Below, one piece after another: positions 43,613 through 45,010 of a stretch of DNA of 64,000 bases. A program made the position numbers and the translations under genes. The notes below the pieces were generated by a model. It saw only the letters and a program-made list of their open reading frames with translations. It was not told the DNA's origin and did no database searches. Each line of letters starts with the position of its first letter. Position 1 is the stretch's first letter. The DNA lies in assembly GCA_964016885.1 (NCBI GenBank), contig OZ024741.1, forward strand, positions 341,744,001-341,808,000, given 5' to 3'. The stretch comes from Eledone cirrhosa (lineage: Eukaryota).

Positions 43613-45010
43613 AACGAAGGAGATGTGGTAAGGAACCAGGTGGACCATAACGCACCAAAGTACTCAATACTTAGGGTAGTAGAGTGGTTAATAGGAACCA
43701 GTAAGACCCCGACGGCTGAGCTCAAGCCGTTTCGACGGCTAATTCTGGACTAAATGAAAATTTATCCTGGTATTTAAATAGCCGAGCTTCTCAAGGGGTA
43801 ATTCCATATATGGTCAAAGTGATTGTCAAAAGTCAGTAGTAATTCTGTGATTGCAAATTAGTAGAGGAGATGGTGGCTAAACCTGCCAGTAGGAGAAAAA
43901 GGGGAGGGGTGGAGTAGACCCAATCATGCGTTGGTAGTGCCATCTACAGCTGGGCATGAGGTCAAAGAAGATACTGGGGAGGGTGAGGAAGTCGAAACGG
44001 TAGGTAGAACAATGAGGGGTAAAAATATATATATGAAAGAAAAAATACTGAGAGTGATGAAAAGCGAATAAGTATAAAGAAAAAAAAGTATAAAAGCAAG
44101 TTCTACGACCTAAGTCTCTAGCTATTGTTAGGCTAGATAAATAAATAAATAAAGAAATAAAGAAAGAAATAAAGAAATAACGAAATAAGTAAATAAACTA
44201 GGTGGGATGGAATAGGCAAGGACCCTTTTAAGAGGTATAAGTACGTAAATCATACGATGACAGGTCAACAAATGGGGCCAAAATACTAAAGAAACTACCA
44301 CAAAATAAATAATTTTTATCCCGAGCACAAGGCCAGCAACCACCCAGTGCAGCAAAGTAAACTAGTACGAGATAATAATTCTGAGTCCCGAAAAAAATAT
44401 ATACTAATGCTAACTCTAAAGGTACCGCCGCGCTACAAAAGATCTTATACAAGCTACATGAAAGTTCGTACGAAGTAAAGGTAGAAAACGGAAAAATAAA
44501 TTCAGAATCCACCCCGCCCAAAAGAAAAGAGAAGAAATACTGAAACGAGAAAATAAGGCATAAGTGCCACTAAGAAATATAGAAGGCACGGAAAATAGTG
44601 GAAGCGGTCGGAAAAGGGGGCAAGTATCCGAGGTCTAACACAACTGCTAAAAAAGCGGAGTCCGCCAAATCTATCATAGACTAGGGGAGGGGGTGGGGGT
44701 ACTGAGGCTACAAGGGGCCAAAGGGCAGCCTCGGGTGGGCGAGAAAAGACGCCGACAAAGAAGAAGAACTGGGGTAGAAGGACTAAGGAGGGATGGGGGA
44801 AGAAGGAAATAAAGGAAGCGATAAAAGAATAAAAAGAAGATCTTATGTCTCCCTTGGAAAGCAGGGGTTACCCATTGCAAAATCGGCAAGTGGGGTGTTA
44901 TAGCCCTAGTCTACCCCCCCCCCCCCCCCGGGTCATTATGGGGTTTGAGGGCGAGGTAAGTCCTACGCAATCTATGTTTACATGCAGTAACCAGTTCATC
45001 TTTCTTGTTT
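43613..45010 (-). mobile_element. PLE 3' fragment: ORF C-terminus, long 3' UTR and pLTR
   Basis: [13 protein letters not shown] (resembles the PLE C-terminal LNKRSELxxKCRH motif) at ~44970-45008; ends CGTTA|(TA)n. Confidence 0.75.
43706..43799 (-). ncRNA. type I hammerhead, U3-A8 core, stable stem III
   Basis: ACCCC-TTGAGAA-GCTCGGCTA...TAGCCGTC-GAAA-CGGCT-TGAGCTC-AGCC-GTC-GGGGT. Confidence 0.85.

What the first reader, a model, noticed from the sequence alone, without database searches (positions are those of the whole stretch)
43706..43799. U3-A8 compensatory hammerhead with a stable stem III in the most abundant local pLTR family
Seen on minus: core UUGAGAA instead of CUGAnGA, 5 bp stem I (ACCCC/GGGGU), 6 bp stem III (ACGGCU/AGCCGU) capped by the palindromic UGAGCUC(A), GUC cleavage triplet and a ~55 nt stem II. 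Established: C3-G8 is a tertiary pair, so U3-A8 is compensatory, and most PLE HHRs have a very short stem III. Inference: it may cleave as a monomer and would be missed by CUGAnGA searches. The 3' half recurs at 5921, 8429 and 63293, with a relative at 32380-32535.
Basis: partly seen in the sequence, partly recalled or inferred. Interest (0 to 1): 0.7.

Follow-up and report, generated by a model that had tools for sequence, protein, structure and literature searches.

The report
Hammerhead ribozyme variant in Penelope-type repeat
This is a hammerhead-ribozyme motif with a known core swap (U3-A8) and an unusually long third stem, near the end of a high-copy repeat that is likely derived from a Penelope-like jumping gene; it likely cuts its own RNA, though this copy is predicted to misfold and most copies nearby carry only half of it.

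Summary
Observation confirmed: a complete type I hammerhead lies at 43799-43706 (-); 0 of 150 shuffled windows give an equal match. Its 5' half belongs to the repeat family (reads and contigs), which has PLE hallmarks: (TA)n targets, inverted 5' pieces, optional tail. No RT ORF is linked. U3-A8 is not new: it is published for PLE hammerheads (about 1,300 hits in Schistosoma), a second U3-A8 motif sits at 57145 in this window, and the scan noted one in another genome. The 6-bp helix III and 37-nt loop II exceed all 56 published metazoan examples I read. The monomer claim is half right. In this copy a competing hairpin hiding GAAA is predicted to win (0.74 vs 0.24). One letter seen in family contigs flips the prediction to the hammerhead (0.85). 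The palindromic helix III also allows the dimer. New lead: 5 of 5 other window copies and 12 of 13 inversion joints shown break at 43738-43755, inside loop II, beside Inr- and TATA-like motifs, which may be a transcription start inside the ribozyme. No RNA evidence. New variant of a known kind; interest 0.35.

The parts
43706..43799 (-). Type I hammerhead motif, whole
   Evidence: 0 of 150 shuffles match
43795..43799 (-). Stem I, 5' arm
   Evidence: pair probability 0.72-0.96
43788..43794 (-). Catalytic core U3-U4-G5-A6-G7-A8-A9 (U3-A8 covariant); this copy has no extra base before G10.1, while the X1 loose-end consensus shows one
   Evidence: (table 7)
43734..43787 (-). Domain II: G10.1-C11.1 pair, 6-bp helix (43784-43779 with 43736-43741), 37-nt AU-rich loop; position 43786 differs among family members
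43730..43733 (-). Conserved G12-A13-A14-A15.1
43712..43730 (-). Helix III (6 bp) and 7-nt loop; an 18-nt palindrome plus one U, self-duplex -30.7 kcal/mol
43710..43711 (-). Predicted cleavage site, after C17 (43711) of GUC
   Evidence: position in motif; cleavage not tested
43706..43710 (-). Stem I, 3' arm
43725..43740 (-). Competing 6-bp hairpin (stem II 3' arm with helix III 5' arm) that puts G12-A13-A14 in a tetraloop; -7.5 vs -7.0 kcal/mol for helix III
43801..43805 (-). Predicted outer extension of stem I, pairing with 43694-43698; probability 0.95 locally but 0.13-0.21 when the tail is included
43738..43755 (-). Cluster of 5' breakpoints and inversion joints of short family copies; Inr-like TCAKTY match begins at 43757 and TYAGT at 43753
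   Evidence: (table 5)
43774..43780 (-). TATA-like TATWWAW match at the stem II / loop II border, 25-29 nt upstream of the Inr-like A positions; function untested
43612..43690 (-). Optional 3' tail between the two family 3' ends (about 43612-43624, and 43691), followed by (TA)n
   Evidence: table 7
43800..45000 (-). Upstream body of the element, with no recognisable protein; repeated in sequencing runs over most of the part laid (to 44365; depth falls to near zero across a simple-repeat stretch at about 44110-44190); ends at a (TA)n tract near 45000
63293..63432 (-). Short copy, 5' end equivalent to 43751
8430..8603 (-). Short copy (5' end equivalent to 43749) with an inverted piece 8565-8603
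5921..6107 (-). Short copy (5' end equivalent to 43740) with an inverted tailless piece 6049-6107 reaching 43749
32402..32535 (-). Diverged relative with an inverted piece that reaches about 43742 (read by eye)
34349..34390 (-). Diverged tailless relative, 5' end equivalent to about 43745

Best explanation
The stretch 43799-43706 (-) is a type I hammerhead motif with a U3-A8 core and a 6-bp helix III near the 3' end of a high-copy repeat that is likely Penelope-like-element (PLE) derived, and it likely self-cleaves after C43711 to cut read-through or tandem element transcripts. Shown: the motif, its membership in the family, and the family's PLE-type insertion structure. Predicted: in the family form (A or U at 43786) the monomer can fold as the hammerhead but stays poised against a near-isoenergetic hairpin that hides GAAA; this genomic copy (C at 43786) mostly takes the inactive hairpin; the palindromic helix III lets two copies form a double hammerhead. 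Inferred from known PLE biology: cleavage is slow and gated (by dimer or by the element's protein), reverse transcription uses uncleaved RNA and starts at two sites downstream of the ribozyme (3' ends near 43612 and at 43691), and integration targets (TA)n. My odds: real hammerhead 0.9; PLE-derived 0.85; family form cleaves measurably as a monomer in vitro 0.55-0.6; this copy is a good monomer cleaver 0.3.
For: Complete motif, 0 of 150 shuffles. The 5' half is family sequence: X12 depth about 530 and X1 word depth about 250,000 over 43771-43822; X5 contigs span 43729-43973 (7 other letters, 1 gap) and 43729-43832; an X9 contig spans 43617-43785. A8 is present in both loose-end consensus rows that reach it (X1: 51 contigs, agreement 0.65; X5: 1 contig). 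PLE hallmarks described in PMC8557442 are present: (TA)n flanks, inverted 5' pieces in 3 of 5 other window copies, tail on some ends only. U3-A8 is a published active covariant and occurs in PLE pLTRs. With A at 43786 the central helix III pairs rise from 0.24 to 0.85 and the competing hairpin falls from 0.74 to 0.15. Dimer minimum-energy fold = double hammerhead. The Anolis PLE hammerhead needs the PLE protein, and its RT starts at two internal sites that define the tail (PMC11167929).
Against: No RT or GIY-YIG ORF is linked: 0 of 14 upstream frames scanned (of 19 listed) reach a Pfam cut-off and no window PLE protein matched 43.6-45 kb by tblastn. Folding z-scores are not significant. Covariation in 7 window pieces is uninformative: 1 double change in helix III, reached by 163 of 500 shuffles and explicable by CpG decay; the competing hairpin is equally well paired, 94.4% of cells. 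The dimer gain of this copy (-13.3 kcal/mol) is matched by 8 of 60 shuffles. The family letter at 43786 rests on a low-agreement consensus and one contig; 115 difference rows were not shown, and U3 was not displayed in any family row. No cleavage or expression data.
Confidence: 0.7

Rival explanations
1. Obligate dimer or protein-assisted ribozyme: the long helix III is cancelled by the competing hairpin, so the monomer is silent and cleavage needs two copies pairing through the palindrome, or the PLE protein, as for other metazoan PLE hammerheads.
For: This copy: hairpin 0.74 vs helix III 0.24. The loop palindrome GAGCUC is kept in the second subfamily while the sixth pair is lost (table 7, 56, 58). 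The dimer fold is the double hammerhead. Precedent.
Against: A or U at 43786 makes the three-stem hammerhead the monomer minimum-energy fold. The dimer gain is not exceptional against shuffles (8 of 60).
Confidence: 0.35
2. Efficient constitutive monomer ribozyme: the 6-bp helix III makes it a fast cis-cleaver like fungal PLE hammerheads.
For: Fungal and protist PLE hammerheads with a large helix III cleave as monomers (kobs 1.97 per min at 10 mM Mg2+ for Serpula). An outer stem I extension is predicted locally.
Against: The competing hairpin is present in all close copies. All other window copies and the short copies in reads span the cut site, so uncleaved RNA was likely the template. Loop I / loop II contacts were not identified or tested.
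Confidence: 0.25
3. Decayed relic: the family once had a hammerhead but now spreads as a short non-autonomous repeat and the motif no longer cleaves.
For: 5 of 6 window insertions lack the 5' half; depth falls 10- to 18-fold in contig runs X5 and X1 between 43719-43744 and 43771-43796; this copy differs from the family at many sites.
Against: Long copies exist in number and in runs labelled as other organisms; every core position is intact in this copy.
Confidence: 0.12
4. Chance juxtaposition: the 5' half is unrelated flank that happens to complete a hammerhead.
For: The 5' half has no second copy in the window.
Against: 0 of 150 shuffles; the 5' half is repeated and joined to the 3' half in contigs of X5 and X9.
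Confidence: 0.02

Closest known systems
U3-A8 minimal hammerheads in Cercyon PLE pLTRs of Schistosoma mansoni (Cervera and de la Pena 2014, PMC4209133)
   Same: Type I topology, U3-A8 core, G10.1-C11.1, short stem I (4-5 bp there, 5 here), mostly dispersed single motifs tied to truncated PLEs.
   Different: Those have essentially no helix III and a loop II of under 10 nt; here helix III is 6 bp with a 7-nt loop and loop II is 37 nt. This copy lacks the extra base before G10.1 that the paper calls conserved, though the X1 family consensus shows it.
Metazoan PLE hammerheads with a small palindromic helix III (Aedes, Saccoglossus, Drosophila, shrimp; PMC4209133 fig. S3)
   Same: Palindromic helix III and loop that allow a double hammerhead.
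   Different: The longest helix III in the 56 rows read is 3 bp with a 4-nt loop (my reading of the PDF text; the set was found with a minimal descriptor and is biased to short helices).
Fungal and protist PLE hammerheads with a large helix III (Serpula lacrymans, Thalassiosira; PMC4209133)
   Same: Long helix III in a PLE terminal repeat, monomer-competent.
   Different: Those are endonuclease-less telomeric elements of non-animals; no competing hairpin or truncation inside loop II is described in the passages read.
Anolis Poseidon PLE (Frangieh 2024, PMC11167929)
   Same: Hammerhead upstream of two RT start sites that define an optional tail; AT-rich targets.
   Different: C3-G8 core, ORF starting at stem II, tail 30-40 bp; here the tail is about 80 bp and no ORF is linked.
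Non-LTR retrozymes (PMC7229834; bioRxiv 10.64898/2026.07.22.740005)
   Same: Non-coding type I hammerhead repeats proposed to derive from PLE pLTRs.
   Different: Retrozymes are tandem arrays of whole-ribozyme units of a few hundred bases; here copies are dispersed, inverted and cut inside the ribozyme.

Membership tests
Type I hammerhead ribozyme | Core N3-UGA-N-N8-A with N3-N8 paired, GAAA, and NUH triplet | tested here: met
   U3-A8 accepted as an active covariant
Type I hammerhead ribozyme | Three helices around the core, open end at stem I, G10.1-C11.1, A15.1-U16.1 | tested here: met
   0 of 150 shuffles
Type I hammerhead ribozyme | Active fold is the dominant monomer fold | tested here: inconclusive
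   this copy 3-7%; 28-42% with the family-type letter, where it is the minimum-energy fold
Type I hammerhead ribozyme | Covariation of stems across the family | tested here: inconclusive
   7 window pieces, 3' half only; 163 of 500 shuffles reach the score
Type I hammerhead ribozyme | Match to an Rfam hammerhead model | tested here: not met
   no hammerhead hit in 43650-43900 at E up to 10; 0 gathering hits in the window, where canonical motifs are missed too
Type I hammerhead ribozyme | Loop I / loop II tertiary contact | not tested
   an outer stem I helix is predicted only in local context
Type I hammerhead ribozyme | Site-specific self-cleavage | not testable with these tools
   needs an in vitro assay or RNA end mapping
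Penelope-like element (PLE) | ORF with telomerase-like RT and GIY-YIG endonuclease in the same element | tested here: inconclusive
   none in the 1.2 kb upstream held in this copy, but the copy ends at a (TA)n tract and may be truncated or non-autonomous
Penelope-like element (PLE) | Hammerhead in the sense strand near the 3' end | tested here: met
   cut site 99 nt from the high-copy end; truncation is on the upstream side
Penelope-like element (PLE) | Inverted 5'-truncated piece next to the insertion | tested here: met
   3 of 5 other window copies; 13 opposite-strand joints among 15 rows shown
Penelope-like element (PLE) | Optional 3' tail and microsatellite target | tested here: met
   ends at about 43612-43624 and at 43691, both followed by (TA)n
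Penelope-like element (PLE) | Partial-tandem arrangement forming two pLTRs | not testable with these tools
   no genome held; no direct tandem in the window
Non-LTR retrozyme | Tandem repeats of units each holding a whole hammerhead | tested here: not met
   six dispersed insertions, one with a whole motif

The most novel reading that the evidence does not exclude
The long loop II holds the element's core promoter, so transcription starts inside the ribozyme (about 43751-43755). Transcripts then begin with an uncleavable half hammerhead and carry a whole one only at their 3' end. Internal RT initiation on that 5' half gives the 140-bp run-off copies that outnumber long copies about ten- to twentyfold. 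The stable helix III makes those half RNAs complete substrate strands of a split (stem I / stem II) hammerhead. This would be a ribozyme switched by where transcription starts; in D. virilis Penelope the start lies upstream of the intron whose end abuts the hammerhead. I found no such case in paper searches.
Probability: 0.25. Interest if true: 0.6.

Novelty: new variant of a known kind. Interest (0 to 1): 0.35.

Why it matters
PLE hammerheads are abundant and their role is unsettled: most cleave poorly and the Anolis one is dispensable for insertion in vitro. A metazoan PLE-type hammerhead with a real helix III and a one-letter switch between active and inactive folds is a clean substrate for asking whether monomer, dimer or protein gating is what selection keeps. 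If the break cluster in loop II is a transcription start, it would explain why such genomes fill with half-ribozyme copies. The U3-A8 core itself adds nothing new.

Tried and rejected
Whole-genome search: no genome held. Rfam: no hammerhead among the 150 best of 262 whole-window matches shown, 1 unrelated weak match locally, 0 at gathering score. Metagenome scan with a 26-base family pattern: 0 matches. Sequencing runs: no RNA holder listed; this says nothing about expression. The 45-residue open frame across the 3' half found 4 candidates and none at E up to 0.01 among longer proteins (weak evidence). A hammerhead-like stretch on the + strand near 43975-44010 was dropped: the descriptor did not return it and runs show a common change inside its GAAA (43995). 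The read ends at 43744 and 43803 in X12 fall on AATT sites and are likely library cuts, so the X12 depth drop was not used for the truncation ratio. A trans complex of the two halves folded into the inactive hairpin form for this copy's letters, which counts against the split-ribozyme part of the novel case. Earlier scan notes: none by sequence or place. Lunse et al. 2017 is not held; I saw only a review's summary. The paper search for a cephalopod precedent rested on my untested guess about the host; it gave nothing specific.

Full report
1. Observation. Domain II is 54 nt but pairs only 1+6 bp around a 37-nt AU-rich loop. A descriptor with these stem lengths finds 1 hit in the window and none in 150 shuffled windows; a loose one finds 4 against a mean of 0.2. 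Folding energy alone is not distinctive (z -0.48, -1.46, -0.68). Rfam has no hammerhead hit here and no hit at gathering score anywhere in the window.

2. Context. The window is AT- and microsatellite-rich and holds several PLE fragments with RT or GIY-YIG matches. The family has six insertions: this one, three close copies at 94.6-97.1% identity and two diverged ones. All five others lack the 5' half; three carry an inverted piece; flanks are (TA)n. These are the structural marks of PLE insertions given in PMC8557442 (passages). No protein is linked: of 19 frames of 40 aa or more overlapping 43760-45010, 14 were scanned and none reached a Pfam cut-off; no window PLE protein matched this stretch. 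So the family is PLE-like in structure, and its autonomous partner is not seen.

3. Is the 5' half family sequence? No genome is held, so I laid four runs on 43615-44365. The 5' half and the upstream body are repeated: X1 summed word depth is about 4.4 million at 43719-43744, 0.25 million at 43771-43822 and 0.05-0.13 million at 43823-44004; X5 gives 521 and 50 for the first two stretches. These are rough ratios (18-fold, 10-fold), not copy numbers. X5 contigs span 43729-43973 and 43729-43832, and an X9 contig spans 43617-43785, so the two halves are joined outside this locus. The X12 drop coincides with AATT sites and was set aside. One loose-end row (1,330 reads at 43741) shows a subfamily with a different loop II, so the ratios overstate truncation. 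Two loose-end rows reach the core. The X1 consensus (51 contigs, agreement 0.65) shows A8, an extra A before G10.1 and A at 43786; one X5 contig shows A8 and U at 43786. U3 was not displayed, and 115 difference rows were hidden.

4. U3-A8 is known. Perreault 2011 (PMC3088659, passages) reports natural U3-A8 covariants and says such variants had been shown active in vitro. Cervera and de la Pena 2014 (PMC4209133, main text parts 1-2 of 4; supplement parts 1-2 of 3) found it in S. mansoni Cercyon pLTRs and retrieved about 1,300 hits with a descriptor for it; 2 of 56 aligned metazoan motifs have it. A second U3-A8 minimal motif lies at 57145-57174 (+) in this window, next to canonical ones at 9295 (-) and 21675 (+). 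The scan noted another in a different genome. What differs here is size: the longest helix III in those 56 rows is 3 bp and loop II is under 10 nt, by my reading of the PDF text. Long helix III is described for fungal and protist PLEs.

5. Monomer or dimer. The 3' arm of stem II and the 3' arm of helix III are the same hexamer, so the 5' arm of helix III can pair with either. The competing hairpin puts G12-A13-A14 in a tetraloop and is slightly more stable (-7.5 vs -7.0 kcal/mol). In this copy it wins: central pair probabilities are 0.74 vs 0.24, and all three stems are fully formed in 3-7% of the ensemble over five flank lengths and two temperatures. But setting 43786 to A or U, as in the family rows, makes the three-stem fold the monomer minimum (28-42% fully formed) and, with A, lifts helix III to 0.85. 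The dimer route stays open: helix III and its loop are an 18-nt palindrome plus one base, and the dimer minimum is the double hammerhead. The gain for this copy, though, is matched by 8 of 60 shuffles. Pair counts on 7 window pieces do not separate helix III from the hairpin (both 94.4% paired). These are secondary-structure predictions without Mg2+ or tertiary contacts.

6. Likely working. Shown: motif, family membership, insertion anatomy. Inferred: RNA reading through the terminal repeat is cut after 43711, slowly and under gating. Short copies span the cut site, so uncleaved RNA was likely copied. This fits Frangieh 2024 (PMC11167929, parts 1-2 of 4), where the Anolis PLE hammerhead needs the element's protein, is not needed for insertion, and RT starts at two internal sites that bound the tail. 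Here the two 3' ends are near 43612-43624 and at 43691. A review (PMC6765202, passages) summarises dimer cleavage and low rates for PLE hammerheads; the primary paper was not available.

7. The break cluster. The five other window insertions reach no further than 43740-43751 (the 32.4-kb value read by eye). Of 15 joint rows shown (3 hidden), 13 join opposite strands and 12 of those have one side at 43738-43755. A TCAKTY match starts at 43757, a TYAGT match at 43753 and a TATWWAW match at 43780; background rates are 0.0016, 0.0020 and 0.0036 per base (patterns recalled, chosen after seeing the cluster). A fixed RNA 5' end inside loop II would explain the cluster and the long loop. RT stalling at the weak AU hairpin in loop II, or a splice-acceptor-like role of the three AG dinucleotides there, are not excluded. 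Penelope of D. virilis has an internal promoter in its pLTR (PMC2377424, passages), with the start upstream of the intron whose end maps to helix I. For a plant retrozyme the start is upstream of the ribozyme cut (PMC12029980, outline and section 2.1). Searches listed no report of a start inside a PLE hammerhead; that library lacks most subscription papers. The trans complex of the two halves folded into the inactive form for this copy's letters.

8. Not a retrozyme in the strict sense: no tandem whole-ribozyme units (definitions from PMC7229834 passages, and bioRxiv 10.64898/2026.07.22.740005 part 1 of 5, whose supplements I did not see).

9. Verdict. Observation confirmed; interpretation partly supported. 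A real hammerhead variant in a PLE-type repeat. The core swap is known; the proportions and the break cluster are the only unusual points, and neither is backed by RNA data. New variant of a known kind; interest 0.35.

Noticed in passing
window 57141-57178 (+): Second U3-A8 minimal hammerhead (4-bp stems I and II by the descriptor, very short helix III) in a different repeat, between (TA)n tracts.
   Followed up: partly
window 9256-9300 (-): Canonical C3-G8 minimal hammerhead about 220 nt downstream of the GIY-YIG frame 9516-10046, same strand: an ordinary PLE 3' end.
   Followed up: partly
window 21670-21725 (+), relative at 20727-20787: C3-G8 hammerhead-like motif with an AU-rich palindromic helix III; its minimum-energy fold hides the core.
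   Followed up: partly
window 46133-49482: PLE-like element on the minus strand (frames 48246-49313 and 47719-48282, no Pfam hit) framed by a 190-bp inverted repeat at 99.5% identity, so probably a young insertion; related piece at 53727-54690.
   Followed up: no
window 22092-23576 (+): RT plus GIY-YIG frames split by one stop, with a 232-bp inverted repeat (21875-22106 and 23921-24152) at 99.6% identity; no hammerhead found by my descriptor in its 3' region.
   Followed up: no
window 36009-37085 (+): LINE-type RT carrying a PHD-finger match inside the RT region; related pieces near 971-1177, 41134-41241 and 49546-49665.
   Followed up: no
window 7796-8188 family and 1855-1996 family: Two SINE-like dispersed families with more copies than the hammerhead family; no hammerhead found in them by my descriptor.
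   Followed up: no
loose ends at 43741 and 43697: At least one further subfamily with a different loop II and a changed sixth helix III pair but the same palindromic loop.
   Followed up: partly
window 56250-63290: About 7 kb of almost pure (TA)n-type microsatellite with small repeat inserts.
   Followed up: no
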